A DNA stretch of 64,000 nucleotides from Candidatus Omnitrophota bacterium (GCA_030649895.1 JAUSEX010000026.1:16823-80822); one strand, 5' to 3'; positions 4,409 through 17,931 are shown, counted from the first letter of the stretch. Translations and numbers: made by a program. Notes: a model not told the origin generated them from the sequence alone.

Positions 4409-6424
4409 TCAAATTGACCAGACAATACTAAGATTAATTTCTTTGCCGCTTGGGATCTCGAGGCTCCATCTGGGCAATATGCAGGACGCCTGAAAGTTGA
4501 GCTCGTAAGCCCTTTCAGACTGGGATACTGTCTTGACCGGGAAATACCATATGTTTTCCGGCTTTTTTGAAAATGTAAAATAAATGTCTATCTCTTTTCC
4601 TGAATCCTTTATTGAAAACGAATCAGTCCCTGGAACCGCGCCCTTTTCATTGAGGCTAGCCAGAATTTTATCGCCTGCGGAATAACTATATCTATCTGAA
4701 TTTAAATAAGGCATTGTCAGATTGAATTCTATCCCAAAAACAGTCTCTATGGCGTCCTTGCTTAAATTTCTTAAACTATACAATATTTCTACCTGCTTCC
4801 TGCCTTTTAATTTTATTTCTTTTGTAACAGCTATGGCCTTACCATCCGCTTTACCTTCCCTCGCAAGCGCAACTTTATCTTTTCCCTTATTAGCCTTATA
4901 ACTTGCATTTATAAAATCTCCTGATTCTTTAGACTTACAATCTATAAAATCGTCTAACCCTGTTGACCTATCGATAAAATGGTCTATAAGGCATCCTCTT
5001 ACATGGCTATCATAACAAAATTCGGATTTAAGCCCCGGGTCGATAACCTTGGTATCTTCGTGAATAGTGCGCACAGCTTTTGCGTCACCGGATTCCCCCA
5101 TCTTTGCCAGTATTTTTTTGTGATACGTTTCTTCATGCCTCGCTATCGAATTGATAAGGTTCGTAGATACTTTTTTTGCGTCCAATTCCCTTATTATCCC
5201 GCCTTTGTCAGGGTCTATACACAAAGAAATCTCTTCATTCTCAATAATAAATGCCTTTTTGCCGTCCTCATAAAAATCTAACTCTTTTATCTCGACCCAG
5301 CCTTTTTTAGCTTTATGTAAAATCTTGTCTGCTATTTTTTCAGCATTTATAAGATGCTCGTAGATAGCCTTCCTTAAATGATAAAGATATAGCCCTCCGA
5401 ATACGCCATGCCAGTAAGCGCAGTTACATTGGCCTTTATATAATTCCCGTAGAGCCAGTTTTGGCTGAAGGCCGAAGGCTGAAGGCTTAATAGAATTTAC
5501 TTTTTTGCTCACATAATGCATTTTTCTGGCCATCTGATTGGCTTCAGGATAAATTCTCAGGAAATTCAGCCATGAACCATGCGACCACTCCATCATCTCC
5601 TGATATGACGCGTCAGGTATCCTTATTTTTTTCACAGGCGAATTTGAATTCAGATAATCCGACAATTTAATAGTAACAACCCAATCCTTATTCCTGGTTA
5701 ATTCCTCAAAGAATTTATTAAGCCAGTTCTGCTTATAGACCCAGTCATAGGTGAAAGGCCATTCCCCGAATTTTTCAGCGTCATCTCCGTATGTAAACAA
5801 AGGCTCATGCCTTCTTGAAGAAATTCCTTTAAAATAATCCATGATCTCGCCTGGCATTTTAAAAGGTATCATGTAGCGCAGCCTTTTGCTTGAAGGGAAG
5901 ATAGCTATCTCTTTATTTTTTTCGCCTGTTGTAAAATAACCGAACAGTTCATCTATATGCAAACCTGCTTCTATAAAATGCTCATCGTCAAGAATAGAAT
6001 ATTTCATGCCGGCCTTATTGAAATCCTTGGCAAGTTCAGGAGCCCAAACCCTTTCAGGCGTCCACATGCCTTGGGCTTTTTGGCCGAATCGTTTTTTTAC
6101 ATAATCAGCCATCATCTTTATCTGGCCGATCCTGTCAATTTCCGGTATGCTTGTAAAAATAGGTTCGTAGTAACCGCCTCCTATGATTTCCACCTGGCGC
6201 CTGTCAACCATGGCTTTAACTCTGTCCATATAATCAGGATGCTTGTCCTCAAAATAATCCAGAAGACATCCTGAAAAATGAAACGCCATTTTTATATCAG
6301 GGTATTTCTCGAATACGTCAAGGAAAGGCTTATAGCAATTTTGATAGGCCCTCTCTACAATATTATCAAAATTACCTACAGGCTGGTGAAAATGCAAACA
6401 CATCCCAAAGTAAACTTTATTCAT
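4409..6424 (-). CDS. GH57 4-α-glucanotransferase (Thermococcus litoralis-type)
   Basis: HFHQP, the GGGYYEP nucleophile region and the DDAEKFG and CNCAYWHG motifs are collinear with the characterised GH57 4-α-glucanotransferase. Confidence 0.8.
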   Translation of the reverse strand: MNKVYFGMCLHFHQPVGNFDNIVERAYQNCYKPFLDVFEKYPDIKMAFHFSGCLLDYFEDKHPDYMDRVKAMVDRRQVEIIGGGYYEPIFTSIPEIDRIGQIKMMADYVKKRFGQKAQGMWTPERVWAPELAKDFNKAGMKYSILDDEHFIEAGLHIDELFGYFTTGEKNKEIAIFPSSKRLRYMIPFKMPGEIMDYFKGISSRRHEPLFTYGDDAEKFGEWPFTYDWVYKQNWLNKFFEELTRNKDWVVTIKLSDYLNSNSPVKKIRIPDASYQEMMEWSHGSWLNFLRIYPEANQMARKMHYVSKKVNSIKPSAFGLQPKLALRELYKGQCNCAYWHGVFGGLYLYHLRKAIYEHLINAEKIADKILHKAKKGWVEIKELDFYEDGKKAFIIENEEISLCIDPDKGGIIRELDAKKVSTNLINSIARHEETYHKKILAKMGESGDAKAVRTIHEDTKVIDPGLKSEFCYDSHVRGCLIDHFIDRSTGLDDFIDCKSKESGDFINASYKANKGKDKVALAREGKADGKAIAVTKEIKLKGRKQVEILYSLRNLSKDAIETVFGIEFNLTMPYLNSDRYSYSAGDKILASLNEKGAVPGTDSFSIKDSGKEIDIYFTFSKKPENIWYFPVKTVSQSERAYELNFQASCILPRWSLEIPSGKEINLSIVWSI

Positions 6425-6435
6425 ATATATAACCC

Positions 6436-6479
6436 ATCCGACTCACGAAGTCGCCATACGGCGACTTCGTGAGTCGGAT
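6436..6479. repeat. Perfect 20-bp-stem hairpin (ATCCGACTCACGAAGTCGCC-atac-GGCGACTTCGTGAGTCGGAT) directly after the glgA stop. Family-2 CCGACTC..GAGTCGG element with an inner palindrome
   Basis: Read from the sequence. Related shorter hairpins are at 24885-24907 and 58572-58596. Confidence 0.7.
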
Positions 6480-6487
6480 AAGGTTCT

Positions 6488-7924
6488 TTATAGGTTTTTA
6501 TATAGTTTCAGATATTTTTCTGCTGATGATTCCCAGGAAAAATCGCAGGATACGCAGTTTTTGAGAAGCGCGCCCCAAAGTTTTTTATCCTTAAACGTGG
6601 CTACTGCTTCTTTAATGGCCTCTAAAAACGCCTCATTGGTAGCGTCTTTAAATTTGAACCCGTTTCCTTTTTTAGCGGAAGGGTCGAAATTCTGTATAGT
6701 ATCGTCCAGTCCGCCCACCGCCCTTACCACGGGCACGGTCGCATATTTCAGGCTATACATCTGATTTAGTCCGCAAGGCTCATATCTGGAAGGCATTAAA
6801 AACATATCTGCCCCAGCCTCTATTTTATGAGACAGGGCATTGTCAAATTTTATACTGACGCCTACATTGCCCTTATGCTTCTTAGCCATATCCTGAAATA
6901 TCTTATTATATTTTTCGTCGCCGAACCCAAGGATTACAAAATCAGAATCTTTCAGTATATCCTTCATGATATTTACAACCAAGTCTATGCCTTTCTGTTC
7001 CGCGAGACGGGTTATCATCGCTAGAATCGGCCTCTTTGCGTTATATTTTATTTCAAATGTCTTGGCAAGGTCTTTTTTGCATTCTTCCTTAGCTTTCAAA
7101 TCCTCTTCGTTGAATTTCTTAGCTATAAACTGGTCCACTGCCGGATTCCAGACAGAATAATCAACTCCATTCACTATCCCATGAAGGTCTTTTTCTCTGG
7201 TCTTTAACAAGCCATCCAGCCCGCATCCGAATTCAGTAGTCAGGATTTCTTTGCTATAGCCCTTGCTCACAGTGCTTATCGCGTCTGAAAAAACTACGCC
7301 TGTTTTCATAAAGCTTATCTTATCCCAGAATTCAATCTTGTCCTGATTAAACAAATCCCAGGATATATCAAGATACGGAACTACATCTTTGATAAAAAGC
7401 CCTTGATAAGCCATGTTATGTATCGTGAACAGCACTTTTACATTATTAAACAACGGGTCATCTTTATAATGGGTCTTTATATATAAAGGCACCAGGCCTG
7501 ACTGCCAATCATTGCAATGAAATATGTCCTGTCTGCCTATGTAAGGTATAGACGCCAGTATTGCCTTTGCGTAAAAACCGAACCTAAAGGCATTGTCCTG
7601 GTAATCGCCCTTAGGCGTGCCGTATAAAAATTCCCTGTCGTAATATTCATTTTTCTCTATAAAATACACGTCCACGCCGTTATGTTTTAAAAGGAGCAGA
7701 TTGAAAAGCTCTTCCCTGTTATTTATCTTCAAAGAGATATTTTTCTTAAACATAACGGGCTTAAAACCGTTTTTCTTAACCAACTGATAGAAAGGCATGA
7801 TCGTACTCGTCTTATGGCCTTTTTTAACAATAGCCTCTGGCAGCGCACCTACTACATCAGCTAAACCGCCGGTCTTAGCGAACGGAAAAACCTCCGGGGA
7901 AATAAATAAAATGTTCATTTTCAT
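6488..7924 (-). CDS. glgA: Glycogen (starch) synthase, GT5
   Basis: N-terminal KTGGLADV motif, about 478 aa. Confidence 0.9.
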   Translation of the reverse strand: MKMNILFISPEVFPFAKTGGLADVVGALPEAIVKKGHKTSTIMPFYQLVKKNGFKPVMFKKNISLKINNREELFNLLLLKHNGVDVYFIEKNEYYDREFLYGTPKGDYQDNAFRFGFYAKAILASIPYIGRQDIFHCNDWQSGLVPLYIKTHYKDDPLFNNVKVLFTIHNMAYQGLFIKDVVPYLDISWDLFNQDKIEFWDKISFMKTGVVFSDAISTVSKGYSKEILTTEFGCGLDGLLKTREKDLHGIVNGVDYSVWNPAVDQFIAKKFNEEDLKAKEECKKDLAKTFEIKYNAKRPILAMITRLAEQKGIDLVVNIMKDILKDSDFVILGFGDEKYNKIFQDMAKKHKGNVGVSIKFDNALSHKIEAGADMFLMPSRYEPCGLNQMYSLKYATVPVVRAVGGLDDTIQNFDPSAKKGNGFKFKDATNEAFLEAIKEAVATFKDKKLWGALLKNCVSCDFSWESSAEKYLKLYKNL

Positions 7925-7989
7925 CCTTTCTTTGCCTATCCCGCTCTCCGGACGGGAATCATTCTGTCCGGGGGAACGGGATCAAGCTG

Positions 7990-9201
7990 TCATTGCAGAA
8001 TTTCGTCCCTGATTTTGCTGGCTATATGCCTTGCAGCAATCACTTTCCCGTAGCATTTTTTCTTTTCGAAATTCCTGCACCCTGAGCTGGCAACTGCCAG
8101 GTACGCATTAAACACTACTTCCTCTTGAAGGATAAGGCCTTTATTTACAAGATTTTCGCTCCACATCCTGCCTTTATTAGCCCACCAGAACTGGCAGCTG
8201 TGCAAAGCCATGTCCAGGTTTTCCCTGGCTGTATTAAAAAATTGCGCTGACTTTTCATTATCATTCTTATCTTCCGCTTCCCGGAATATCTCCAGGCATG
8301 TATCCATATATTCCCACTGCAGCCTGTGGATTGTATTGTGAGGCGTGTTCCATAGTGGATAATAGTTTCCCGCCATTATTTCTTCATTGGAGGTGCTCCA
8401 GGAAGAAGGCCTGGGAGGCTTTACCTTAACTGCTGGAAATATTTCCGATAAATCGCTGATCTTAACCACCTTTACTTCCTTTGAATCTCTTATTATTTCA
8501 TACGCTTTCCCCAAAAACATATTTTCCCAGCCATGGATATGATGGCCGAACGTTTCCGCGTCCATAGCCGTTATTATATAAGCATTTTCCTTGCCTTCCG
8601 CCAATTCTTTAATCCTTGACACAAACCCCGCGGCATCTATATTTTTAAAACTTATCATATTGCTGATTATATCGTCTCTGAAAAATACCTTCATGGAACC
8701 TGAGCCAAGCTTAAAATTTGACGTATAATCCATAGGCCATTTCCCCTGGCATGCGATCCCGCTCACTATAACCCACTCATAACCCATGCCTCTTACAATA
8801 GAGCCTGCTGCGTCAGAGTAGCACATCTCTGGCGGGAAAAATCCTTTTGGCTTATAGCTGTCTTTAAAAAAAGACAGGTTTGTTTTTTTATTCAGCTCTA
8901 TCTGCCTCCTGGCTTCATTCTCGGGTATCAAAGGTAGTATCGCGTGAAATTTCGCTGATTCTGTAAATTCTATCTGTCCAAGCCTGCCTAGTTCCATAAG
9001 GCCGGTTGGGACATCTCCAAAGCCATGATCAGCCAGCATCTCAGTCAGCACCCCGCACATATTTATCGTAACCCTGGATTCGGGATGATCTTTAAAGACC
9101 TTAACCAGAGGCCTGTAAGATTCTTCACAAATCTTTGCCAATACGCCATGCGACTGCGTCGGAGGTTGATAAAAATGTAAAAGCGGCGCCCAATATATCA
9201 T
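7990..9201 (-). CDS. Glycoside hydrolase family 57 protein of unknown specificity (about 400 aa class)
   Basis: N-terminal HFYQP motif and a DAETFGHH catalytic-Asp region. It overlaps the DUF2934 gene by 4 nt (ATGA). Confidence 0.7.
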   Translation of the reverse strand: MIYWAPLLHFYQPPTQSHGVLAKICEESYRPLVKVFKDHPESRVTINMCGVLTEMLADHGFGDVPTGLMELGRLGQIEFTESAKFHAILPLIPENEARRQIELNKKTNLSFFKDSYKPKGFFPPEMCYSDAAGSIVRGMGYEWVIVSGIACQGKWPMDYTSNFKLGSGSMKVFFRDDIISNMISFKNIDAAGFVSRIKELAEGKENAYIITAMDAETFGHHIHGWENMFLGKAYEIIRDSKEVKVVKISDLSEIFPAVKVKPPRPSSWSTSNEEIMAGNYYPLWNTPHNTIHRLQWEYMDTCLEIFREAEDKNDNEKSAQFFNTARENLDMALHSCQFWWANKGRMWSENLVNKGLILQEEVVFNAYLAVASSGCRNFEKKKCYGKVIAARHIASKIRDEILQ

Positions 9202-9386
9202 TTCATACCTAGTTCTTCTTTAGCTAATCTTTCAGCTTTAAGCCAGTCTTCCAGATCGTTTCCTGACTTACAGCCCCTTTTTTCATAAATCTCATACGCC
9301 TTTTTCTGGACTAGCTGCATAAATTCTTCGCGGCTTACCCTGTTTTCATTATCCAGCGACAGTATCTTTTTTAGTTTCTTTAACAT
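9198..9386 (-). CDS. DUF2934 family small protein (62 aa)
   Basis: KKAYEIYEKRG....GNDLEDWLKAE matches the DUF2934 signature. It is translationally coupled (ATGA overlap) to the downstream GH57 gene. Confidence 0.6.
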   Translation of the reverse strand: MLKKLKKILSLDNENRVSREEFMQLVQKKAYEIYEKRGCKSGNDLEDWLKAERLAKEELGMK

Positions 9387-9446: not shown

Positions 9447-10775
9447 CTATCCCAGCGCTTCCATGCCCCTGCGGCAAATCTCCTTTGCGTAATCTGTCCA
9501 TGCGCCTGTGCCCCAGTATCGGAAGCAGCTGGTCTGGGATAATAATAGATAAAGAAGCGCCTTTCTGTAGGGAACAGTTTGAAGCCGCCCTCTAACTATT
9601 TCATTGTCAAATTTTTTATGAAATGCCGCGCTAAGCCGGGTTATAGGATCCATTATATCTTTATATCCGCTCACCCAATCTTTATCATTTGTCCAGGACG
9701 CCTTTTCCAGGCTAAAGCCAGGATATTTTTGTTTTGCTTTCTCAATAGCCATGTCAGCTGCGCCAGGAGAATATCCTTTTATGAATTCCCAGATCCTAGC
9801 CTGAGAAATCGGTTGCACCGGCATAAAAGAATTTTCTTTAAGGCCTGAGTTTTTTACAAATTCAAGATATTCTGTAGCGTTCATGCTGACTACGCCTTCC
9901 CTGCCTATTTCCTGAAAAACTATTTTATACATATTCGGAAACTCGTTCATCATGACTCCGCCGTTTTCCCCATCCCCTATCTGTGCCACAAAAGGCGGCA
10001 GATCTACCCCGCAATATTTTTCATTGCCAAGGCCTTTAGCTTCATAATACGGCTGCATCTGCCCGATCAGCTTATTGTCAGAACCCTGGGTTTTTATAAC
10101 GGCTATAATTTCAATCTTTTCCCCTAGAGAATTTTTAGCGACTAATTTGTGCGGAAAATGCGGCCTTCTTACAGGCGTGCCGTCGAGATTCTCTATTGTA
10201 TGCTCCTGGACCATGAGCCATTTATATCCACACTCTTTCAGGGCCTTTATATATTCAAAACACACATCGGGATGTATGGGAAGGTGCATCTCAGGCGCAG
10301 AAAAACCCTTCACCCTCTCAAGCGCTTTCTGACCGAATATTGAGGCAAAATGCTCTCGCCATTCTTGTATATGAAGCCTGATATCCGGGACAGGCGTAGA
10401 GCTGACAACGGCGTGCGACCACATTGTCCCGAGCCATTCAACATAGTTATAATATTTTTTGTCACAGGTCACAAGTTTCAAATTTTCCAGGACCTTTTCT
10501 TCGCCCATGTCTTTAAGGCCCCAGAGAAGGTTTCCCGAATAATCCAGCATAATCCTTGGATCTTTACCTTGACTGGAAAGTTCTCTTATAAAATCAGATA
10601 TCCTGGTATAGCAATTCAAAAATACAGGCGCATTGTGATTATCCCCTGTATTCTGATGCTCCATCATATACTGCAGATTGGAAATTAGCTTTGCCGTCCT
10701 GAGATCCTCGCCGCCTGCAGGAATAATAGGCTGATGCATATGAAGCGCTACGCCAAAACATGATTGTATCTTCAT
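9447..10775 (-). CDS. Glycoside hydrolase family 57 protein (third paralog, unknown specificity)
   Basis: HMHQP, a GFSAPEMHLP nucleophile-like region and GDGENGG. It overlaps the upstream branching enzyme by 4 nt. Confidence 0.7.
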   Translation of the reverse strand: MKIQSCFGVALHMHQPIIPAGGEDLRTAKLISNLQYMMEHQNTGDNHNAPVFLNCYTRISDFIRELSSQGKDPRIMLDYSGNLLWGLKDMGEEKVLENLKLVTCDKKYYNYVEWLGTMWSHAVVSSTPVPDIRLHIQEWREHFASIFGQKALERVKGFSAPEMHLPIHPDVCFEYIKALKECGYKWLMVQEHTIENLDGTPVRRPHFPHKLVAKNSLGEKIEIIAVIKTQGSDNKLIGQMQPYYEAKGLGNEKYCGVDLPPFVAQIGDGENGGVMMNEFPNMYKIVFQEIGREGVVSMNATEYLEFVKNSGLKENSFMPVQPISQARIWEFIKGYSPGAADMAIEKAKQKYPGFSLEKASWTNDKDWVSGYKDIMDPITRLSAAFHKKFDNEIVRGRLQTVPYRKALLYLLLSQTSCFRYWGTGAWTDYAKEICRRGMEALG

Positions 10776-12397
10776 GCCACGCCTTCCTTTATTTTTGCCT
10801 GGATATAGTATTCAGCGCAATCCATGTCAGAAAAAATGTTATCTCTCGATTCGACTTCCCGAAGCCATTCTCCTTCAATAGATCCGGCAAGCATGCCATT
10901 ATAAATATGCGTGAATCTGTTTATATGAAGCTTCACCCTTTTATCGGCATACTCTACCATGGTGCCTGTTTTCATTATAAACGGCCAATCGCTTGCCTGC
11001 GCCAAAAGAAGCTCTCTAGCTGCCTGATTCAGCGCCCGCCTCGCAAGCTCGTTTTTGCCATTATTCATGCAATTAGAAAATTTTCCGGCCAGCTCTTTCA
11101 TCCTCTCGCCTGCGACATGCAAATGCCTGTATATCCAATCATTGCTGCCTTCCAGCCAGACTTCGTTATAACCTTTATAACCCCACGTAGATGTTGACGG
11201 AACAGACATTTGATTTACCGAATATTCCCTCAGGTAATCTGAAGGCGTAGCAAGTTTTACTGTCTTCTGATCATATGCGATTTTACGAATCAGAAAATCT
11301 ATCCACATCGGGCCTTCGAACCACCAGTGGCCGAATAACTCCGCGTCATAAGGAGAAATAATCATGGGCTTTCTGTCCATATGATACGCGACATGCTCTA
11401 TCTGTTTTTCCCGGTTAAACATAAAATTCCCTGCGTGCATAGCTGCCTTTTCCTTTGCCCATTCAGGGACATATGGCTCTTTATGATCGGTATTTCCTGT
11501 AATCCTCCAGTATTTAAGGCCCGTATTTATTCTGAATCCTATCGGATGAATGTAGGGTTTTATATAGTCGTATTCCAATTCATATCCTATATCCCTGTAG
11601 TATTCCCTGTAATCGGAGTCTCCCGGATAACCTTCTTTTGAGCTCCACACCTGTTTGGAAGATTCCCAATCTCTTCCAAATGCTGCAACGCCTGAAGGAC
11701 AGTACAGAGGCGCGTATACGCTATATCTCGGTTCTGGATCCGCATTTACAATACCATGCGAATCTACAAAGAAATATTTAATGCCTGCTTCTGCCAAAAA
11801 ATTATCAACGCCAGGAGTATATCCGCATTCAGGCAGCCAGAACCCTACGGGGTCTCTGCCAAATGTTTTTCTGTAATGATCCACTCCAATCTTTACCTGA
11901 GCCTCTGCGTCTGTAGGATTTACGCTTAATATAGGCAAAAATCCATGAGTAGCGCACGAAGCCAGGATCTCTACGAAACCAAGATCCTGGAATTTCTTAA
12001 ACGCAGCCACCAGATCTTTTTTATATTTACCTACAAATACCTCTTTCGCCTCTACAAATTTCCTGTAATACATCAGAGCGAGGCCGTGATATTTAGGGTC
12101 GAAACCCGTGCGCTGGACTTCCTTGTCTGCGAGTTCGATTAATTTATCAATATGCCTTATATATCTATTCTGGAGAAGCTCATCCCGGAGCATTGACGCC
12201 AATGTGGGCGTCAGGGACATTGTTATGCGGAAATCCACATGGTCTTCTACTAATTTTTCAAAAACCTGAATCAGCGGTATATAAGTTTCTGTAATGGCTT
12301 CATAGAGCCAGTTCTCCTCGAGAAAATCTTCCTCTTCAGGATGCCTGACAAATGGCAGGTGCGCGTGCAATACTAAACAAAGATAACCTTTATGCAT
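10772..12397 (-). CDS. GH57-type 1,4-α-glucan branching enzyme
   Basis: LHAHLPFVRH, PYDAELFGHWWFEG and EASDWPF-like motifs are collinear with the Thermus and Thermococcus GH57 branching enzymes. Confidence 0.85.
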   Translation of the reverse strand: MHKGYLCLVLHAHLPFVRHPEEEDFLEENWLYEAITETYIPLIQVFEKLVEDHVDFRITMSLTPTLASMLRDELLQNRYIRHIDKLIELADKEVQRTGFDPKYHGLALMYYRKFVEAKEVFVGKYKKDLVAAFKKFQDLGFVEILASCATHGFLPILSVNPTDAEAQVKIGVDHYRKTFGRDPVGFWLPECGYTPGVDNFLAEAGIKYFFVDSHGIVNADPEPRYSVYAPLYCPSGVAAFGRDWESSKQVWSSKEGYPGDSDYREYYRDIGYELEYDYIKPYIHPIGFRINTGLKYWRITGNTDHKEPYVPEWAKEKAAMHAGNFMFNREKQIEHVAYHMDRKPMIISPYDAELFGHWWFEGPMWIDFLIRKIAYDQKTVKLATPSDYLREYSVNQMSVPSTSTWGYKGYNEVWLEGSNDWIYRHLHVAGERMKELAGKFSNCMNNGKNELARRALNQAARELLLAQASDWPFIMKTGTMVEYADKRVKLHINRFTHIYNGMLAGSIEGEWLREVESRDNIFSDMDCAEYYIQAKIKEGVA

Positions 12398-12405
12398 AGC
12401 TATAT

Positions 12406-12486
12406 AATAGGGACGGTTCTATAAGTAAAGCTAGATATGTCCCTTTAGGGGACATATCTCCGATTGGCTCTAGAACCGTCCCTATT
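12406..12486. repeat. TAGGGAC-arm palindromic element copy 2. Outer 16-bp inverted repeat AATAGGGACGGTTCTA..TAGAACCGTCCCTATT enclosing an inner 11-bp-stem hairpin (AGATATGTCCC-tttag-GGGACATATCT). It overlaps the DUF4912 stop
   Basis: Read from the sequence. It shares the terminal AATAGGGAC with copies 1 and 3. Confidence 0.7.
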
Positions 12487-13723
12487 CTGTTTTTCTTTCT
12501 ACAGTTGTAGAAATTTTTCTTGTCTCTACTTTATCGTGCGAAGTTGCGGTAAAAGGCAATGGGATTTTCGCGTCCGGAAGCGCAAACCTCATGCTGAAAG
12601 TCCCGTCCGGTTTAAGGTCTATTTTTTTATCTCCCAGTTTTACCTCCGCGTCAGGCTCTGTGCGGCCATACACTATAAGCTCTGCGCCTATCTCAAAAAA
12701 GAATTTGCGTTTCTTATCCGGCTGGACAAATTCACTCGCGCCTCCCTGCAAGTTCTCGCTCCCCCCAAGATATGCAAATTCAGATGCCCCGATCATAATC
12801 TTTCTGCCAAATTTCACGTTGTGCAGCCTTTTGAAATAAAGCAGGTCGTGCCATTCTTTTCCTGACATATTGGAATATAAATACCTATATAGCTTCTTTC
12901 TTGAAATCCTGGAAAACATCGCATCTCTTAATAAAGGAGAAAGCCTTGAATAATAAGCCCTCAGGTCCGCCTCGGTAAGATATATCTTTCTTCGTTTAGA
13001 TACAGCCGAGTAACTGAACCTGCCTGCTGCGTCATATTGAACCCCTCGGCTTCGCTCAAAGCAGGCAGCTCCTTCGGTCTTCATAGGCGTAGCCTGTTCG
13101 CTACCTGCCTCCTGAGTCAGGTCCATCCATATCTCTTCAAATCTGCTAGATGTGCCAGATCTAGGGGTATGTACGAAATTAGACCTGGCCATAGGAAAAA
13201 ATCTTCCGGAGTGATGAACTATACCTATCTCTCCCAGATACGAGGCATTATCATTCCACAGACTTATATACCAGTTATTAGAATAGCGGCCCACCTCTAT
13301 GTCAAACCAATGGTTAGCGTTAAACCCGTTAAAATCTTTATATGTGACGTCATACATGCGGACAACAAACCTTGCGCCGTCCAGATTCCCGCCTAATTTG
13401 CGTTTAACGTCCTCTATCGAACTCTCCGCTATTTCCCAGTAAGCGTATATCCAGAAAGGGTCTTTTGCTATTAAAGTAATTCTTGTTGTAGTGTTATACG
13501 AAGGAAGTTCATATTCATTTATTGCCGCAGGCCTAAACGCGCCTTTACGTTCTTGTATTACGCAGGAAGGTTCCTGAACAGTAGCTGCTGGCCTTAAAAC
13601 AACCGGTTGCTTATATTTTATCCTTCTCTTAACAGTCCTGACAGTAGCCTCTCTGCCGTCTCTGTAAACACGCTCTATGGGTTTTCTTTTCTTAAGTTTT
13701 ATTTTTTTACCTGGCATATACAT
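12482..13723 (-). CDS. DUF4912 domain protein with a Lys/Arg-rich N-terminal tail and an uncharacterised C-terminal domain
   Basis: DPFWIYAYWEI and the downstream block match the DUF4912 signature. Its 5' end overlaps the GT4 gene by 17 nt. Confidence 0.65.
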   Translation of the reverse strand: MYMPGKKIKLKKRKPIERVYRDGREATVRTVKRRIKYKQPVVLRPAATVQEPSCVIQERKGAFRPAAINEYELPSYNTTTRITLIAKDPFWIYAYWEIAESSIEDVKRKLGGNLDGARFVVRMYDVTYKDFNGFNANHWFDIEVGRYSNNWYISLWNDNASYLGEIGIVHHSGRFFPMARSNFVHTPRSGTSSRFEEIWMDLTQEAGSEQATPMKTEGAACFERSRGVQYDAAGRFSYSAVSKRRKIYLTEADLRAYYSRLSPLLRDAMFSRISRKKLYRYLYSNMSGKEWHDLLYFKRLHNVKFGRKIMIGASEFAYLGGSENLQGGASEFVQPDKKRKFFFEIGAELIVYGRTEPDAEVKLGDKKIDLKPDGTFSMRFALPDAKIPLPFTATSHDKVETRKISTTVERKTE

Positions 13724-14867
13724 CCATAACCTGGTCAGCTACAATATCCCAGGAAAAAGCGGTCTCAACTGCAATTCTTCCGTTAGCCCCCATCCATCTT
13801 GCGTGGTCAAAATCTGAAAATACCGTGCCTATGCCCCATGCTATTGACTCGGGATTTGCGTATACCTTTAGACCTGTGATATCATGCCATATTATTTCCC
13901 CTGGCCCGCCGTTTGAGGTGGCGACTACAGGTTTTCCTGCGCTCCACGCCTCCAGCAAAACTATGCCGAACGGCTCGTTTCTTGAAGGCATGCACACAAC
14001 ATCCGCAGCTTTATAAATATCAGAGAGCTTCCAGCCATTGCTAAAGCCTATAAACCTTGTAGCGTGATGAACGCCTATCTCTTTTGCCCTGTCTTCCACG
14101 CACCAGCGCATTTCTCCGTCGCCTACAAAAACAAATTTTGCATTATTGTGGTATCTAAGTATGTGAGGCATGGCTTCTATCAAAAGATCCGGGCCTTTTT
14201 GATAAACCATCCTGCCGACAAAAAGCACCATCGGATCTAACGGCCCAATACCATAATAATTCCTGACAGCCGCAGAGTCTATCCACCCGTCAAAATTCTT
14301 GCAATTGACGCCATTATACACTACGTCCACTTTCCAATCAGAGGTATTATACATCCATTGTATTTCTCCCTTGAGAGCCCTAGACACAGCTATCACATGA
14401 TCAGCGCAGTATGTGCCATGCCTTTCATGATCGCGAATCCTAGCAGAATTTCCGTCATTAAAATTATTACCGCACCTGCCGTATTCAGTCGAATGGATTG
14501 TCAGTACAGCTTTGGAGGGACGCACATGCTTTATCCAGACCATTGCGTTTGACGTAAGCCAATCGTGGCTGTGTATCACGTCAAACGGACCCGTAACGCC
14601 CTCTGTACGAAAAAACGTATCCACAAAAGAGCGGCACATGTTATTTATCTCTTCTACGAAATCAGGATTCTTATCAAAGGGGCATCTGTGGTAATGCACT
14701 CCTTGAATGCACTCATACCATGGCTGGTTAGCGCTTCCCATCCGCGTAAAAACATGGACTTCATTACCTTTGCGCTCAAGGGCTGCTGCGAGCTCTGTAA
14801 CGTGCACGCCCACCCCGCCCACGCAAATAGAATGCATAGATTCCCAGGAAAATATCGCTATTCTCAT
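13707..14867 (-). CDS. Glycosyltransferase family 4 (archaeal glycogen-synthase-like or GlgM-like retaining GT)
   Basis: N-terminal GT4 Rossmann domain (RIAIFSWESMHSICVGGVGVHV) and a C-terminal GT1-type domain with the E..G-P motifs. Confidence 0.75.
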   Translation of the reverse strand: MRIAIFSWESMHSICVGGVGVHVTELAAALERKGNEVHVFTRMGSANQPWYECIQGVHYHRCPFDKNPDFVEEINNMCRSFVDTFFRTEGVTGPFDVIHSHDWLTSNAMVWIKHVRPSKAVLTIHSTEYGRCGNNFNDGNSARIRDHERHGTYCADHVIAVSRALKGEIQWMYNTSDWKVDVVYNGVNCKNFDGWIDSAAVRNYYGIGPLDPMVLFVGRMVYQKGPDLLIEAMPHILRYHNNAKFVFVGDGEMRWCVEDRAKEIGVHHATRFIGFSNGWKLSDIYKAADVVCMPSRNEPFGIVLLEAWSAGKPVVATSNGGPGEIIWHDITGLKVYANPESIAWGIGTVFSDFDHARWMGANGRIAVETAFSWDIVADQVMDVYAR

Positions 14868-14880
14868 AAATTATTTCCGC

Positions 14881-15000: not shown

Positions 15001-15005
15001 GCGAT

Positions 15006-15320
15006 TTAAAGTTCTATCACTGAGTTTTCCGAGCCGAAAGTATTTACCACGAAAAGATTGTTTAAGGGGTCTCTCTGCCACTGGCCATCAACTAAATATT
15101 TATACTCGTAACGGCCGGATTTTAGGGTTAAGTCTCTTTTCCAGACTCCATCTTTAGACTTTTTGAGGCTGGCGTTTGATGCGTCCCATGAATTAAAATC
15201 GCCCGCAAGGCGAACATCCTTTGCGTTTGGAGCGCTTATCTTAAAAGCCACCTTTTTTGTTAAATTTTTCTTAACAGCCATTTCCCCCTCCTTTTTTTGG
15301 CACCACGCACCATTCTGCAT
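15006..15320 (-). CDS. Stand-alone CBM48 / AMPK-β-like glycogen-binding domain protein (about 100 aa)
   Basis: VRLAGDFNSWD...W...L.L..G.YEYKYLVDGQWQRDP is the CBM48 signature. The start could instead be the internal Met (MAVKKN). Confidence 0.7.
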   Translation of the reverse strand: MQNGAWCQKKEGEMAVKKNLTKKVAFKISAPNAKDVRLAGDFNSWDASNASLKKSKDGVWKRDLTLKSGRYEYKYLVDGQWQRDPLNNLFVVNTFGSENSVIEL

Positions 15321-15408
15321 TAATTATGTGAGATCAAATGATACCAGATAGGCCTGCTTTTGTAAATAGGCACAAATACCTACTTTAAGTAGCTTTTCTG
15401 CTTATACA

Positions 15409-16059
15409 CTATATAGTGGTTATGCCTTCTTTGAGTGCGTACCTGATGAGGTCTGCGTGGCGATGAATGCCCAATTTCTGCATTATATTGTTTCTATGCG
15501 CTAAAGCGGTTTTTAAAGAAATCTTAAGGTGGGCAGCAACTTCTTTATTTGTATAGCCCTCAGCAACGAGCTGGAGGACCTCTCTTTCCCTGTCAGTAAG
15601 GCTGACTATCTTTTTTCCCTTTATCTTTTGGCCTCTTGAATCAATATAATCCTGTATCACAAAAGTGGATATCCTCTGGCTGAGAAAATATTCATCTTCA
15701 TAAACTACGCGTATAGCCTGGATGATTTCATCAGCCGCGGAATCTTTTAAAACATACCCTCTGATACCTAAACTCAACGCCCTTTCTATAAACGCCCTGT
15801 TGTCATGCATGCTCAATATAATAATTTTATTTTTTGGATTAATCTGCATTATCTGGCTTGAGGCCTCTAAGCCATTCAATATCGGCATTGTTATGTCAAT
15901 TATAAATATATCTGCGGAACTTTTTTTTGCTATATCCACGGCCTCTTTGCCGTTCGATGCCTCTGCGACAACCTTCATATCCTGTTCCTGGAATATCACG
16001 GCGCTCAAACCCTGCCTTACTATCGCATGATCATCTGCCAGAACTATCTCTATAGCCAT
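15409..16059 (-). CDS. Response regulator, NarL/FixJ (LuxR-HTH) family
   Basis: REC domain plus a C-terminal LuxR HTH (LTDREREVLQLVAEGYTNKEVA). Confidence 0.9.
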   Translation of the reverse strand: MAIEIVLADDHAIVRQGLSAVIFQEQDMKVVAEASNGKEAVDIAKKSSADIFIIDITMPILNGLEASSQIMQINPKNKIIILSMHDNRAFIERALSLGIRGYVLKDSAADEIIQAIRVVYEDEYFLSQRISTFVIQDYIDSRGQKIKGKKIVSLTDREREVLQLVAEGYTNKEVAAHLKISLKTALAHRNNIMQKLGIHRHADLIRYALKEGITTI

Positions 16060-16103
16060 AATTTTTTCTCTATCGCCTCCGTTCGCAGAACGAAGGCAGT
16101 AAC

Positions 16104-16781
16104 TTACATTTCTTCGATTATCGGGAAAGTCACATTTATCTTCGTTCCGTTTTTAGGCTTAGACTCCAGTAAAAATTTACCGTTCAATAAATCCACCCGC
16201 TCCCTCATGCCGCGCAAACCAAGCTTATCTATATTCGCGTCTTTGAAAAATGCCCCTGTGTCGAACCCTATGCCATTGTCCTCTATTGTAAGAATTATTT
16301 CCCCTCCCTTAAGCAATAAATCTATCTTTACATTTTTCGCCTTCGCGTGCTTTACAATATTATTAAACGCCTCCTGAATAACCCTGTAAAGAGTTATTGC
16401 CATATCGTCTTTTATGCTAACGCCGGCCAGGTTTTCTCTAAATTTTATATTTAAAGGGTGCGATTTTGTATAATGGGAAAAAAGTTCTCGCAAAACCGAT
16501 GGCAGGCCCAGCATACCTAACTCTGCAGGCCTCAGGTCTATAAAAAGCGTTCTGAATCTTTCCGCTGTATTAGCCAGGATTGTTTTTGCGTCTTTTATTA
16601 TGCTAAGGGCGCTATCAAAATTGCGCTTCGATATTTCTTTTTCAATTATATTCAATGCTGAGCCAAGAGATACCGAAAACTGGCCTATCTCATCATGAAG
16701 ATCCCGCGATATCCTGTGCCTTTCCTCTTCCTGGATAGCGAGTATCTTCTTCGAAAATTCCCTTGCTGCTATATCTTTCAT
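16104..16781 (-). CDS. Cytoplasmic histidine kinase (HisKA_3 + HATPase_c) with no membrane or sensor domain
   Basis: LHDEIGQ H-box and N, G1, G2 boxes. It is 225 aa with no hydrophobic segments. Confidence 0.85.
   Translation of the reverse strand: MKDIAAREFSKKILAIQEEERHRISRDLHDEIGQFSVSLGSALNIIEKEISKRNFDSALSIIKDAKTILANTAERFRTLFIDLRPAELGMLGLPSVLRELFSHYTKSHPLNIKFRENLAGVSIKDDMAITLYRVIQEAFNNIVKHAKAKNVKIDLLLKGGEIILTIEDNGIGFDTGAFFKDANIDKLGLRGMRERVDLLNGKFLLESKPKNGTKINVTFPIIEEM

Positions 16782-16836: not shown

Positions 16837-17931
<1,095 letters not shown>

What the first reader, a model, noticed from the sequence alone, without database searches (positions are those of the whole stretch)
4409..16781. 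A 12 kb GH57-centred α-glucan module with unknown-function partners, inserted into the gap / pgk-tpiA-secG glycolytic cluster
A contiguous block sits between gap (16837-17847) and pgk-tpiA-secG (2019-4340). It encodes four GH57 proteins: a branching enzyme, a T. litoralis-type 4-α-glucanotransferase and two paralogs of unknown specificity. It also encodes GlgA, a GT4 glycosyltransferase, a DUF4912 protein, a 62-aa DUF2934 protein, a stand-alone CBM48 glycogen-binding domain and a sensor-less histidine kinase with a LuxR-type response regulator. Several genes are ATGA-coupled (10772-10775, 9198-9201), which implies co-translation. The window contains no glgC, glgP or GH13 enzyme, so nucleotide-sugar supply and degradation must come from elsewhere or from the unassigned genes. 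gap-pgk-tpi is normally contiguous, so this looks like an accessory module dropped into a glycolytic operon. Its boundaries and internal spacers carry the repeat families reported separately. The combination GH57×4 + DUF4912 + DUF2934 + free CBM48 + dedicated two-component system is not a described glycogen operon architecture.
Basis: partly seen in the sequence, partly recalled or inferred. Interest (0 to 1): 0.7.

Follow-up and report, generated by a model that had tools for sequence, protein, structure and literature searches.

The report
Omnitrophota glycogen cluster with unknown partners
This is a real, vertically inherited storage-glucan gene cluster of an uncultured Omnitrophota bacterium, and it matters because its conserved unknown-function partner (DUF4912) sits next to the widespread "loop-less" GH57 branching-type enzyme in several phyla, an enzyme class whose role in cells is still unknown.

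Summary
In detail: every gene, domain call and ATGA overlap is as described, and no glgC, glgP or GH13 gene lies in the window. The source is a Candidatus Omnitrophota MAG.

The block is not foreign. GC and tetranucleotide usage match the flanks, and there is no integrase, tRNA or flanking repeat. The order recurs in relatives.

It has two layers:
- A core, CBM48–GT4–DUF4912–GH57(AmyC-type)–GH57(442 aa), kept in order in 18 complete and 6 truncated Omnitrophota loci.
- Clade-specific additions: DUF2934–GH57(403 aa)–GlgA–4-α-glucanotransferase, and a histidine kinase with its response regulator.

Gap–pgk is contiguous in most relatives, so in this clade an old rearrangement placed the cluster between them.

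New points:
- DUF4912 immediately followed by the GH57 enzyme recurs in 13 of 17 loci outside the core type and Cyanobacteria.
- That enzyme lacks the flexible loop and β5–β6 strands, the class with little branching activity in vitro.
- DUF4912 models as two non-catalytic β-sandwiches.
- In relatives without the kinase pair, CBM48 is fused to an XRE DNA-binding domain, suggesting a glucan sensor.
- Two GalT-like genes upstream of gap include an ADP-glucose-phosphorylase homologue.

Verdict: a new variant of a known kind, of moderate to high interest.

The parts
19000..20028 (-). GalT2: a GalT/HIT-family paralog with H-L-R-S-Q in place of the H-x-H-x-Q motif (nucleophile His replaced by Arg). 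Probably a non-catalytic or altered partner of GalT1.
   Evidence: Pfam and NCBIfam GalT domains. It is 50% identical to GalT1. The motif alignment shows the same variant in L001 and L005.
17932..18948 (-). GalT1: ADP-glucose phosphorylase-like HIT enzyme with an intact HSHTQ motif.
   Evidence: The best solved relative is Arabidopsis At5g18200 (1Z84/2H39), E 6e-74 over 330 residues. The identity of that entry as ADP-glucose phosphorylase, EC 2.7.7.36, comes. The gene is syntenic in L001 and L005.
16837..17898 (-). gap (glyceraldehyde-3-phosphate dehydrogenase). It travels with the block in this clade. The likely true start gives 336 aa (16837-17847).
   Evidence: Pfam Gp_dh_N and Gp_dh_C. Synteny in L001 and L005.
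16104..16781 (-). Cytoplasmic histidine kinase of 225 aa without a sensor domain (HisKA_3 + HATPase_c).
   Evidence: The gene is kept next to RR-CBM48 in L001, L005, L006 and L166, and at 47% identity in L014.
15409..16059 (-). NarL/LuxR-type response regulator (REC + GerE).
   Evidence: Synteny as for the kinase.
15006..15320 (-). Stand-alone CBM48 protein of the AMPK-β type. The probable real start is 15281 (91 aa). Proposed role: glucan sensor or adaptor.
   Evidence: Pfam. The nearest solved relatives are AMPK β1/β2 glycogen-binding modules, E 9e-9. The orthologous gene is fused to an XRE HTH_3 domain in L002, L008, L010, L011, L012, L016 and L033.
13707..14867 (-). GT4 retaining glycosyltransferase, a core gene. 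Proposed role: α-1,4-glucosyltransferase.
   Evidence: Pfam and NCBIfam: best model glgA_Coryne, 163 bits, below the 302-bit cutoff. PDB relatives MshA, SPS, GlgM and archaeal GlgA at E 1e-25 to 1e-18. It is 61-89% identical across Omnitrophota loci and always directly upstream of DUF4912.
12482..13723 (-). DUF4912 protein, a core gene. It has a basic disordered N-terminus, an FN3-like β-sandwich (residues 78-190), a low-confidence linker and a second β-sandwich (residues 345-410). It is non-catalytic and is the proposed partner of the GH57 enzyme downstream.
12398..12490 (-). Intercistronic palindromic hairpin (AATAGGGACGGTTCT...). REP/MITE-like; a possible transcript-end or stabiliser element.
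   Evidence: ΔG -45.4 kcal/mol, z -7.0. Present at the same site in L005 and absent in L001 and L004.
10772..12397 (-). GH57 + BE_C enzyme of the T. maritima AmyC type. It lacks the flexible loop and the β5-β6 insert. A core gene.
   Evidence: Pfam and NCBIfam. 2B5D at E 3.6e-157 aligns without gaps there. Alignments to 3N8T, 5WU7 and 1UFA show the two missing segments. The meaning of those segments comes from PMC9291813.
9447..10775 (-). Highly divergent GH57 enzyme (442 aa), a core gene. Candidate nucleophile E162 and proton donor D268 are invariant.
   Evidence: Pfam 30 bits. No solved relative by sequence or by profile. The AF2 model matches GH57 structures: 1K1W at E 2e-9, TM 0.54-0.57. 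hhalign places HMHQP and E162 on CSR-1 and CSR-3. At least 7996 relatives exist, 63-87% identical across the phylum.
9198..9386 (-). DUF2934 small protein (62 aa), ATGA-coupled to the GH57 gene downstream. A clade-specific addition.
   Evidence: Pfam. Overlap read. Found only in the window, L001, L005 and L084, always at this position.
7990..9201 (-). Small GH57 enzyme (403 aa) with both catalytic residues (E125, D214). Specificity unassigned.
   Evidence: Pfam 109 bits. The alignment to 1K1W places E125 (FFPPEMCY) and D214 (MDAETFGH) on the T. litoralis motifs that hold its catalytic Glu and Asp. CSR-4 position 23 is Thr, judged against the fingerprints in PMC6037648.
6488..7924 (-). GlgA, the ADP-glucose-type GT5 glycogen synthase.
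   Evidence: TIGR02095 at 565 bits, above the 328-bit cutoff.
6425..6490 (-). Perfect 20-bp hairpin after glgA; a terminator-like or stabiliser element.
   Evidence: ΔG -46.3 kcal/mol, z -12.2. The sequence is not conserved in L001, L005 or L084.
4409..6424 (-). GH57 4-α-glucanotransferase of the T. litoralis type.
   Evidence: Three-domain Pfam architecture. 1K1W at E 4e-116. CSR-4 reads GDDAEKFG, with Lys at position 23, the 4-α-glucanotransferase fingerprint.
2019..4340 (-). pgk-tpiA-secG, the glycolytic unit downstream of the block. A promoter-like site lies at 4396-4368.
   Evidence: Pfam. Promoter scan. The order pgk-tpiA-secG-SBP5 is shared with L084, L099, L112 and L127.

Best explanation
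The region is a native storage α-glucan (glycogen-type) supercluster of an Omnitrophota bacterium, built in two layers.

Layer 1 is a phylum-wide five-gene core:
- a CBM48 protein;
- a GT4 glycosyltransferase;
- DUF4912;
- an AmyC-type GH57 enzyme ('branching enzyme' without the flexible loop);
- a very divergent 442-aa GH57 enzyme.

Layer 2 is a set of clade-specific additions:
- DUF2934, the 403-aa GH57, GlgA and the GH57 4-α-glucanotransferase downstream;
- a sensor-less histidine kinase with a LuxR-type regulator upstream;
- further upstream, gap and two GalT-like genes.

In this clade an old rearrangement placed the cluster between gap and pgk-tpiA-secG, next to the triose-phosphate genes of glycolysis.

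Proposed working (inferred, not shown):
- GlgA and the GT4 enzyme extend α-1,4 chains from a nucleotide-glucose donor.
- The AmyC-type GH57 acts on the growing chain, branching or transglycosylating, together with DUF4912. DUF4912 is a non-catalytic protein of two β-sandwiches that would tether or orient the enzyme on its substrate.
- The 4-α-glucanotransferase and the two small GH57 enzymes remodel and degrade the polymer.
- GalT1 interconverts ADP-glucose + phosphate and glucose-1-phosphate + ADP.
- The AMPK-β-like CBM48 protein reports glucan status to transcription. Here it would act through the sensor-less kinase and regulator. In other lineages it is fused directly to an XRE DNA-binding domain.
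For: Shown:
- Domain identities.
- Source phylum: a 100% identical protein is labelled as from a Candidatus Omnitrophota MAG.
- Core order and strand are conserved in 18 complete and 6 truncated Omnitrophota loci. Identities are GT4 61-89%, GH57-BE 64-92%, GH57(442) 63-87% and DUF4912 34-82%.
- The full window order recurs in L005 and L084.
- DUF4912 immediately followed by GH57-BE on the same strand occurs in 13 of 17 loci outside the core type and outside Cyanobacteria. These are labelled Goldiibacteriota, Thermodesulfobacteriota, Ozemobacteraceae, Planctomycetia, Verrucomicrobiales, Bacillota, a delta-proteobacterium, one atypical Omnitrophota MAG and unclassified MAGs. Flanks are often unrelated.
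- L038 embeds the pair in another glycogen cluster with GlgA, 4-α-glucanotransferase, a GalT-like gene and an NTP-transferase::PGM fusion.
- DUF4912 models as two confident β-sandwiches with no enzyme fold.
- GH57-BE aligns without gaps to AmyC and lacks both the loop and the β5-β6 segment.
- The 442-aa protein has a GH57 fold and invariant E162 and D268.
- HTH_3::CBM48 fusions occupy the same position where the kinase-regulator pair is absent.
- The CBM48 protein is closest to AMPK-β glycogen-binding modules.
- GalT1 matches At5g18200 at E 6e-74.
- Composition is native.

From the literature:
- Loop-less GH57 GBEs have weak or no branching on amylose and an unknown in vivo role (PMC9291813).
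- They retain α-1,4-transglycosylation (PMC10346327).
- A GT4 α-1,4-glucosyltransferase sits in the same cluster as a GH57 GBE-like gene in the M. tuberculosis MGLP cluster (PMC2674218).
Against: - No activity, interaction or transcript data exist for any of these proteins.
- DUF4912 is not linked to GH57 in any of the roughly 43 cyanobacterial loci sampled, so the partnership is not universal.
- Fold searches give DUF4912 only a generic FN3-like fold, with no carbohydrate-binding homologue.
- The GT4 donor and acceptor cannot be read from sequence. It is about equally distant from MshA, sucrose-phosphate synthase, GlgM and archaeal GlgA.
- L015 and L021 have a free CBM48 gene with neither a kinase-regulator pair nor an HTH domain, which weakens the sensor idea.
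- ADP-glucose phosphorylase is described as a breakdown enzyme in plants, and whether it can supply ADP-glucose here is unknown.
- The rest of the genome could not be retrieved, so glgC and glgP may exist elsewhere.
- Taxon labels come from MAG record titles.
- Only the best 80 of at least 600 DUF4912 loci were examined.
Confidence: 0.7

Rival explanations
1. One reading: a horizontally acquired accessory α-glucan island that inserted into a gap-pgk-tpiA-secG operon.
For: Gap lies directly upstream of pgk in 32 of 57 informative relatives and within 3.5 kb in 8 more. L112 and L127 carry gap-pgk-tpiA-secG-SBP5 with no block. The window, L005 and L084 have about 12 kb between the two genes. Palindromic elements sit in several spacers.
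Against: GC is 0.423 against 0.425, and the tetranucleotide correlation of 0.971 is within the native range. There is no integrase, tRNA or direct repeat at either border. The only recombinase is a XerC/D-like gene 8 kb away, beside UDG and PriA; the UDG-PriA-def-fmt order there is shared with L001. The core genes are present throughout the phylum with a smooth identity gradient. L001 keeps the block joined to gap but not to pgk. The hairpins vary between close relatives and are not at the borders; the pgk-side spacer is unstructured, z +0.9.
Confidence: 0.08
2. An ordinary GlgA/GlgB glycogen operon. The extra genes (DUF4912, DUF2934, GT4, CBM48, small GH57s) would be incidental neighbours or redundant paralogs with no special role.
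For: GlgA is a bona fide ADP-glucose-type synthase. GH57 GBEs and GH57 4-α-glucanotransferases are established glycogen enzymes. Glycogen synthesis has already been inferred for Omnitrophota MAGs.
Against: GlgA is the dispensable part. Most Omnitrophota loci carry the core with no glgA within 10 kb (L002, L008, L010, L011, L015, L017, L018, L021, L033). The 'extra' genes are the ones under strict synteny, with 61-92% identity for GT4 and the two core GH57 enzymes. The GH57-BE is of the class that branches poorly on its own. Translational overlaps link GT4 to DUF4912 and BE to the 442-aa GH57.
Confidence: 0.12
3. The core (GT4, DUF4912, AmyC-type GH57, 442-aa GH57, CBM48) makes a product distinct from classical glycogen. 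This could be a short or specially linked α-gluco-oligosaccharide, analogous to the mycobacterial MGLP backbone made by Rv3032 (GT4) and Rv3031 (GH57). GlgA glycogen would then be a separate pathway that merely became adjacent.
For: The MGLP cluster precedent pairs a GT4 α-1,4-glucosyltransferase with a loop-less GH57 GBE-like protein thought to make one α-1,6 bond. Xiang et al. propose that loop-less GH57 GBEs act in pathways other than glycogen synthesis. The core occurs without glgA in most loci. Some Omnitrophota loci have what appears to be a GH13 GlgB beside the core, suggesting the functions are not redundant (not Pfam-verified).
Against: No methyltransferase, acyltransferase or glucosyl-glycerate gene accompanies the core. 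The associated CBM48 is of the glycogen-binding AMPK-β type. In L013, L014, L038 and this clade the core is contiguous with glgA and 4-α-glucanotransferase. The similarity of the GT4 protein to Rv3032 was not tested.
Confidence: 0.2

Closest known systems
Classical bacterial glycogen operon (glgBXCAP, the GlgC-GlgA pathway)
   Same: It contains an ADP-glucose-type GT5 GlgA, a branching-type enzyme and a disproportionating enzyme. The genes are clustered and co-oriented.
   Different: The window has no GlgC, GlgP, GlgX or GH13 enzyme. All four glucan-active hydrolases or transferases are GH57. There are extra conserved genes (GT4, DUF4912, CBM48, DUF2934), a dedicated two-component system and GalT-like genes.
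Thermotoga maritima AmyC (2B5D) and the 'loop-deficient' GH57 GBE class (Xiang et al. 2021; Zhang et al. 2019)
   Same: The 541-aa protein aligns over its full length at E 3.6e-157. It has the same absence of the flexible loop and β5-β6 strands, and the same GH57 + BE_C architecture.
   Different: Here, and in several other phyla, the enzyme gene is immediately preceded by a DUF4912 gene. The searched literature does not mention this association. No activity data exist for the Omnitrophota enzyme.
Mycobacterium tuberculosis MGLP cluster Rv3030-Rv3037c (GT4 Rv3032 with GH57 Rv3031)
   Same: A GT4 α-glucosyltransferase gene lies close to a loop-less GH57 GBE-like gene.
   Different: There are no methyl- or acyltransferases here. 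DUF4912, CBM48 and a second GH57 are present instead. Sequence relatedness of the two GT4 enzymes was not tested.
AMPK β-subunit carbohydrate-binding module (CBM48) and plant PTST/FLO6 CBM48 adaptors
   Same: The 91-104-aa protein is most similar to AMPK β1/β2 glycogen-binding modules (E 9e-9). The alignment keeps the FN(S/N)W and YK(Y/F)xVDGQW stretches. The module is used outside an enzyme, as in AMPK and PTST.
   Different: It stands alone or is fused to an XRE HTH or a ParA-like ATPase, in bacteria, next to a two-component system. No kinase-complex scaffold or coiled coil is present.
Arabidopsis ADP-glucose phosphorylase At5g18200 (1Z84, EC 2.7.7.36)
   Same: GalT1 aligns over 330 residues at E 6e-74, with the HxHxQ motif and the CxxC zinc site conserved.
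   Different: It is bacterial and tandemly duplicated, with a paralog that has lost the nucleophilic histidine. It is linked to glycogen genes. The direction of flux, supply or salvage, is unknown.

Membership tests
Classical GlgC-GlgA glycogen operon | ADP-glucose pyrophosphorylase GlgC (NTP_transferase) encoded in or near the cluster | tested here: not met
   None of the 48 scanned ORFs of the window (18 in 1-20 kb, 30 in 20-64 kb) has an NTP_transferase domain. The rest of the genome is not available.
Classical GlgC-GlgA glycogen operon | GT5 glycogen synthase GlgA | tested here: met
   TIGR02095 at 565 bits, cutoff 328.
Classical GlgC-GlgA glycogen operon | GH13 branching enzyme GlgB, GT35 phosphorylase GlgP and GH13 debranching enzyme GlgX | tested here: not met
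   None found in the window. GH57 enzymes are present instead.
GH57 glycoside hydrolases (442-aa protein) | Pfam GH57 score above the gathering threshold | tested here: met
   30.3 bits against a cutoff of 21.2, covering the N-terminal half only.
GH57 glycoside hydrolases (442-aa protein) | (β/α)7-barrel fold followed by a helical bundle | tested here: met
   The AF2 model has pLDDT 71 and pTM 0.73. The top 17 Foldseek PDB hits are all GH57 structures; the best is E 2e-9 with TM 0.54-0.57.
GH57 glycoside hydrolases (442-aa protein) | Catalytic nucleophile Glu in CSR-3 and proton donor Asp in CSR-4 | tested here: inconclusive
   hhalign aligns E162 to the nucleophile Glu of the two other GH57 proteins, and E162 is invariant in 35 homologues. 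D268, in the invariant DGENGG motif, fits the CSR-4 pattern, but no tool aligned it.
'True' GH57 glycogen branching enzyme (Xiang et al. 2021 criteria) | Flexible loop of 17-22 residues covering the active-site cleft | tested here: not met
   The alignments to 3N8T and 5WU7 show 10 residues missing at the loop position. The alignment to the loop-less AmyC has no gap there.
'True' GH57 glycogen branching enzyme (Xiang et al. 2021 criteria) | β5-β6 strand insert after the nucleophile | tested here: not met
   A 13-16-residue segment is absent relative to 3N8T and 5WU7, directly after WLPECGYTP.
'True' GH57 glycogen branching enzyme (Xiang et al. 2021 criteria) | GH57 catalytic domain plus BE_C (DUF1957) domain with the catalytic Glu and Asp | tested here: met
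   Pfam GH57 at 142 bits and BE_C at 123 bits. The WLPECGY and YDAELFGHWW motifs are conserved against AmyC.
GlgM (maltose-1-phosphate synthase, GT4) | Score above the TIGR02149 cutoff, and co-occurrence with GlgE | tested here: not met
   163 bits against a cutoff of 302. 6TVP GlgM matches only at E 2e-21, similar to MshA and SPS. No GH13 or GlgE gene lies in the window.
ADP-glucose phosphorylase (At5g18200-like class I GalT/HIT) | HxHxQ nucleotidyl-transfer motif and full-length homology to At5g18200 | tested here: met
   GalT1 has HSHTQ and matches at E 6e-74 over residues 5-334. GalT2 fails this test, with HLRSQ.
ADP-glucose phosphorylase (At5g18200-like class I GalT/HIT) | Phosphorolysis of ADP-glucose, with preference over UDP-hexoses | not testable with these tools
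   This requires an enzyme assay.
Genomic island or mobile element | Deviant composition, an integrase or transposase, a tRNA or direct-repeat border | tested here: not met
NarL/LuxR-type two-component system | HisKA_3 + HATPase_c kinase adjacent to a REC + GerE regulator | tested here: met
NarL/LuxR-type two-component system | Sensor input domain on the kinase (transmembrane, PAS, GAF and the like) | tested here: not met
   The kinase is 225 aa and HisKA_3 starts at residue 20. No other domain is detected.
Mycobacterial MGLP-type cluster | A GT4 α-1,4-glucosyltransferase gene in one cluster with a GH57 GBE-like gene | tested here: met
   GT4 and GH57-BE are separated only by DUF4912.
Mycobacterial MGLP-type cluster | SAM-dependent methyltransferases and acyltransferases in the cluster | tested here: not met
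   None found among the block genes or in the related loci.

The most novel reading that the evidence does not exclude
DUF4912 is the missing obligate partner of the loop-less GH57 'branching enzymes', which make up about 92% of that family and are nearly inactive alone. It would act as a non-catalytic two-β-sandwich subunit that supplies the substrate-holding function of the absent flexible loop and β5-β6 strands, or that couples the enzyme to the chain emerging from the GT4 synthase.

In addition, Omnitrophota would use an AMPK-β-like CBM48 module as a cytoplasmic glycogen sensor. It would feed either an XRE DNA-binding domain (fused form) or a sensor-less histidine kinase (free form). That would be the first bacterial signalling system whose input is the cell's own storage polysaccharide.
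Probability: 0.3. Interest if true: 0.8.

Novelty: new variant of a known kind. Interest (0 to 1): 0.6.

Why it matters
**An open problem made testable.** GH57 'glycogen branching enzymes' are widespread, but most lack the structural elements needed for branching. They show little activity in vitro, and their role in cells is an acknowledged open problem; the M. tuberculosis Rv3031 protein is one example. A conserved, translationally coupled neighbour found across several phyla gives a concrete hypothesis: test the enzyme together with DUF4912, and in Omnitrophota together with the GT4 synthase too.

**Possible new regulators.** The swap between HTH::CBM48 fusions and the kinase-regulator pair, and the ParA::CBM48 fusions, point to bacterial proteins that may sense or position glycogen granules. 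I found no description of these in the searched literature.

**Physiology of an uncultured phylum.** The cluster indicates that carbon storage is wired directly to lower glycolysis. It may also run without GlgC, through an ADP-glucose-phosphorylase-like enzyme.

Tried and rejected
- **Mobile-island reading: rejected.** Composition is native. There are no tRNAs near the block and no border repeats. The only recombinase is XerC/D-like and lies 8 kb away.
- **Spacer 'repeat families' as borders or riboswitches: rejected.** Rfam finds nothing in 1-22 kb. The AATAGGGAC motif is not over-represented: 15 matches against 16 expected. The hairpins are stable but are present or absent among close relatives.
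- **Sequence-level assignment of the 442-aa GH57: failed.** Even a 35-sequence profile found nothing. Only fold-level and motif-level evidence was obtained.
- **CSR-fingerprint assignment of the 403-aa GH57: ambiguous.** It combines Thr at position 23, which is α-amylase-like, with an aromatic residue at position 12 and a WW-like end, so I left the specificity open.
- **GT4 as GlgM: rejected.** It scores below the family cutoff and no GlgE is present.
- **Reaching the rest of the source contig to look for glgC and glgP: failed.** Only short Logan contigs inside the window were indexed.
- **Literature searches for DUF4912, PF16258 and CBM48 with helix-turn-helix: nothing relevant**.
- **Not done:** comparison of the GT4 protein with Rv3032, because no sequence was available; and the third homologue search, which was left unused.

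Full report
**1. What is there**

All ORFs from 339 to 20028 lie on the minus strand with short spacers.
- a T. litoralis-type GH57 4-α-glucanotransferase (4409-6424; 1K1W at E 4e-116);
- GlgA (6488-7924; TIGR02095 at 565 bits);
- a 403-aa GH57 (7990-9201);
- DUF2934 (9198-9386);
- a 442-aa protein that only just scores as GH57 (9447-10775; 30 bits);
- a GH57 + BE_C protein (10772-12397);
- DUF4912 (12482-13723);
- a GT4 transferase (13707-14867);
- a free CBM48 (15006-15320);
- a REC + GerE regulator (15409-16059);
- a 225-aa HisKA_3/HATPase kinase with no room for a sensor (16104-16781).

The block is flanked by gap on one side and pgk-tpiA-secG on the other. The two ATGA overlaps and a GT4/DUF4912 overlap were read from the sequence. 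None of the 30 further ORFs scanned in the window, down to 200 aa, is a GlgC-type nucleotidyltransferase, a GT35 phosphorylase or a GH13 enzyme.

**2. Source and nativeness**

Proteins 100% identical to the DUF4912 and 442-aa GH57 products are on record from a Candidatus Omnitrophota MAG, on a 95-kb contig. The block's GC is 0.423 against 0.425 for the rest of the window. Its tetranucleotide profile correlates with the rest at 0.971, inside the 0.962-0.979 range of equally sized native chunks. There is no tRNA within 13 kb and no flanking direct repeat. The only recombinase is a XerC/D-type gene 8 kb upstream, beside UDG and PriA; the UDG-PriA-def-fmt order there is shared with relative L001. 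Nothing suggests foreign origin.

**3. Comparative anatomy**

I seeded a scan of one genome per species with a diverse DUF4912 alignment. It returned at least 600 loci, of which the best 80 were kept. tblastn of all window proteins and clustering of the ORFs show two layers.

*The core.* [CBM48]-GT4-DUF4912-GH57(BE type)-GH57(442 type) keeps the same order and strand in 18 complete Omnitrophota loci, and consistently in 6 more that are cut by contig ends. DUF4912 identity falls to 34%, while GT4 stays at 61-89%, the BE-type enzyme at 64-92% and the 442-aa enzyme at 63-87%. Most of these loci have no glgA, gap or pgk within 10 kb. The core is thus a self-contained unit, and glgA is the optional part.

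*The additions.* The window's full order, GalT2-GalT1-gap-HK-RR-CBM48-GT4-DUF4912-BE-GH57(442)-DUF2934-GH57(403)-GlgA-4αGT, recurs in L001 and L005. Its downstream half, BE through 4αGT followed by pgk-tpiA-secG-SBP5, recurs in L084. L005 also has pgk downstream, whereas L001 has mutS there. DUF2934 occurs only in this clade and always at the same position.

**4. The 'insertion' claim**

A metagenome scan seeded on pgk gave 57 loci with enough upstream sequence. Gap is within 400 bp upstream in 32 and within 3.5 kb in 8 more. L112 and L127 carry gap-pgk-tpiA-secG-SBP5, which is the window's flanks without the block. But given native composition, a phylum-wide core, conservation of the arrangement at 73-82% DUF4912 identity, and L001 keeping the gap side only, the event is an old intragenomic rearrangement. 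It brought the glucan cluster next to glycolytic genes. It is not the arrival of an accessory island.

**5. The DUF4912-GH57 pair beyond the phylum**

Of the 17 loci that were neither of the Omnitrophota core type nor cyanobacterial, 13 have the BE-type GH57 gene immediately downstream of DUF4912 on the same strand, often overlapping. One more has it two genes away. The record titles name Goldiibacteriota, Thermodesulfobacteriota, Ozemobacteraceae (two loci), Planctomycetia/Planctomycetales, Verrucomicrobiales, Bacillota, a delta-proteobacterium, an atypical Omnitrophota MAG and unclassified MAGs.

The flanks are otherwise unrelated: a sulfatase, adenylate cyclases, hrcA. So the two-gene unit itself is what is conserved. 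In L038 the pair sits in another glycogen cluster: GH57, 4αGT, a GalT-like gene, DUF4912, BE, an NTP-transferase::phosphoglucomutase fusion and GlgA. In about 43 cyanobacterial loci DUF4912 is not near any GH57 gene, so the link is not universal.

**6. What the BE-type enzyme is**

Its best solved relative is T. maritima AmyC (2B5D, E 3.6e-157), and the alignment has no gap at the loop and β5-β6 positions. Against the T. kodakarensis, P. horikoshii and T. thermophilus enzymes it lacks a 13-16-residue segment right after the nucleophile motif and 10 residues at the flexible-loop position.

Xiang et al. showed that 92% of about 2500 GH57 GBE sequences lack exactly these two elements. Such enzymes have low or no branching activity on amylose, and their in vivo substrate 'remains to be established' (PMC9291813). 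They do retain α-1,4-transglycosylation (PMC10346327).

**7. What DUF4912 is**

The family is large, with about 5000 clusters at 50% identity. The AF2 model (63 sequences) has the following parts:
- a basic, disordered N-terminus;
- a confident β-sandwich at residues 78-190, which is the Pfam domain;
- a low-confidence linker;
- a second confident β-sandwich at residues 345-410.

I infer a non-catalytic binding or scaffold protein. Its conserved, often overlapping position upstream of the loop-less GH57 makes a physical or functional partnership the most economical reading. This is inference, not demonstration.

**8. The two small GH57 proteins**

*The 403-aa protein.* It aligns to T. litoralis 4-α-glucanotransferase with E125 (FFPPEMCY) and D214 (MDAETFGH) on the motifs that hold that enzyme's catalytic Glu and Asp (that these are Glu123 and Asp214 is from my own knowledge). 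Its CSR fingerprint is mixed when judged against Martinovičová & Janeček, so I leave its specificity open.

*The 442-aa protein.* It has no solved relative by sequence or by profile. Its AF2 model (pLDDT 71, pTM 0.73) nevertheless hits only GH57 structures at the top of the list; 1K1W scores E 2e-9 with TM 0.54-0.57. hhalign puts its HMHQP motif and E162 on CSR-1 and the nucleophile. E162 and D268, the latter in DGENGG, are invariant. It has at least 7996 relatives and stays 63-71% identical where DUF4912 has dropped to 34-48%. That pattern fits a strongly constrained and probably active enzyme from an uncharacterised GH57 clade.

The two proteins are barely similar to each other.

**9. GT4**

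The best family model is glgA_Coryne, the GlgM family, at 163 bits and well below its 302-bit cutoff. Solved relatives are all similarly distant, at E 1e-25 to 1e-18: MshA, a sucrose-phosphate synthase, GlgM, BshA and archaeal GlgA. Its specificity cannot be read from sequence.

There are two precedents for a GT4 working beside GH57 enzymes. In M. tuberculosis, Rv3032 is a GT4 α-1,4-glucosyltransferase encoded in the same cluster as the loop-less GH57 Rv3031. In archaea, unassigned GT4 genes sit among glgB and GH57 amylase genes and are speculated to be glycogen synthases (PMC11046441).

**10. Regulation**

The CBM48 protein is closest to the AMPK β1/β2 glycogen-binding modules (E 9e-9), and the alignment keeps the FNSW and YKYLVDGQW stretches.

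Where the kinase-regulator pair is present, CBM48 is free. This is so in the window, L001, L005, L006, L166 and the more distant L014. In L002/L003, L008, L010, L011, L012, L016 and L033 the pair is absent, and the CBM48 gene in the same position carries an N-terminal XRE HTH_3 domain. That fusion argues the module feeds transcriptional control.

The sensor-less kinase could use the free module as its input. That idea is untested, and it is weakened by L015 and L021, which have a free CBM48 with neither partner. A PTST-like targeting role is the alternative.

**11. Nucleotide sugar**

GalT1 matches Arabidopsis ADP-glucose phosphorylase At5g18200 at E 6e-74 and has an intact HSHTQ motif. GalT2 is 50% identical to it but reads H-L-R-S-Q, and the same change is present in L001 and L005.

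Single-copy intact homologues sit next to glgA or 4αGT in L016 and L038, and two genes downstream of the BE-type GH57 in L078. This enzyme could link ADP-glucose and glucose-1-phosphate without GlgC. Whether it supplies or salvages ADP-glucose is unknown, and the rest of the genome could not be examined.

**12. Spacers**

Very stable hairpins follow DUF4912, GH57(403), glgA and secG, with z scores from -5 to -12. Promoter-like sites precede DUF2934, CBM48 and pgk. The block is therefore probably several transcription units.

The hairpins differ among close relatives. L005 shares the element after DUF4912, whereas L001 and L004 have a 16-23-nt spacer there. No Rfam family matches. They look like REP/MITE-type palindromes, not borders.

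**13. Verdict**

The region is a native, conserved storage-glucan cluster: a new variant of a known kind. Its value lies in three leads:
- the cross-phylum pairing of DUF4912 with loop-less GH57 enzymes, which makes an open enzymological question testable;
- CBM48-based regulators;
- a possible GlgC-independent link to ADP-glucose.

Limits:
- there are no functional data;
- taxon labels come from record titles;
- only the best 80 loci per scan were examined;
- gene calling in the loci was by simple ORF rules;
- the confidence of the 442-aa model is moderate.

Noticed in passing
window 17932-20028 (minus strand): Tandem GalT/HIT paralogs, 50% identical. GalT1 keeps HSHTQ and matches Arabidopsis ADP-glucose phosphorylase. 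GalT2 reads H-L-R-S-Q, so the nucleophilic His is replaced by Arg. The same change is seen in relatives L001 and L005. This may be a heterodimer with a single active site.
   Followed up: partly
L002:8313-8822, L008:8087-8587, L010:8250-8747, L011:8240-8710, L012:189-692, L016:7982-8539, L033:8018-8515: XRE-type HTH_3 domain fused to an AMPK-β-like CBM48, always directly upstream of the GT4 gene, in Omnitrophota loci that lack the HK-RR pair. This is a candidate one-component regulator that senses glucan.
   Followed up: partly
L030:5509-6621 and L039:5867-6964: ParA/MinD-like ATPase (AAA_31/CbiA) fused to a C-terminal CBM48, four genes upstream of DUF4912. It may be a system for positioning glycogen granules.
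   Followed up: no
window 12398-12490, 7925-7989, 6425-6490, 1945-2035: Exceptionally stable intergenic palindromes (z -5 to -12). Two of them share AATAGGGAC termini. They are present or absent at the same sites in close relatives: L005 has the one after DUF4912, while L001 and L004 do not. This behaviour is REP/MITE-like.
   Followed up: partly
L038:12511-14919: An 802-aa fusion of a sugar-1-phosphate nucleotidyltransferase with a phosphoglucomutase. It lies between the DUF4912-GH57 pair and glgA in an unclassified bacterium.
   Followed up: no
L010:5806-7809 (same ORF cluster in L016 and L020): A 667-aa ORF that looks like a GH13 GlgB with a CBM48 lies beside the core in some Omnitrophota. 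Those genomes would then carry both a GH13 and a loop-less GH57 'branching enzyme' side by side. This was not verified with Pfam.
   Followed up: no
DUF4912 homologues in L054, L057, L059, L075 and others: Cyanobacterial and Bacillota DUF4912 proteins carry an N-terminal Rho_N (HeH) motif where the Omnitrophota proteins have a lysine-rich tail. In Cyanobacteria the gene is not linked to GH57 at all.
   Followed up: partly
window 24908-25795 (minus strand): XerC/D-type tyrosine recombinase next to UDG and PriA. The UDG-PriA-def-fmt order is also seen in L001. It is probably a housekeeping gene and not related to the block.
   Followed up: partly
window 15281-15320: Public gene calls start the CBM48 gene at the internal Met, giving 91 aa (L001, L005, L166), not at the 104-aa ORF start.
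   Followed up: yes
L005:19245-20110: In L005 the spacer between the 4-α-glucanotransferase gene and pgk is about 870 nt and strongly structured, against 68 nt in the window. Its content was not examined.
   Followed up: no
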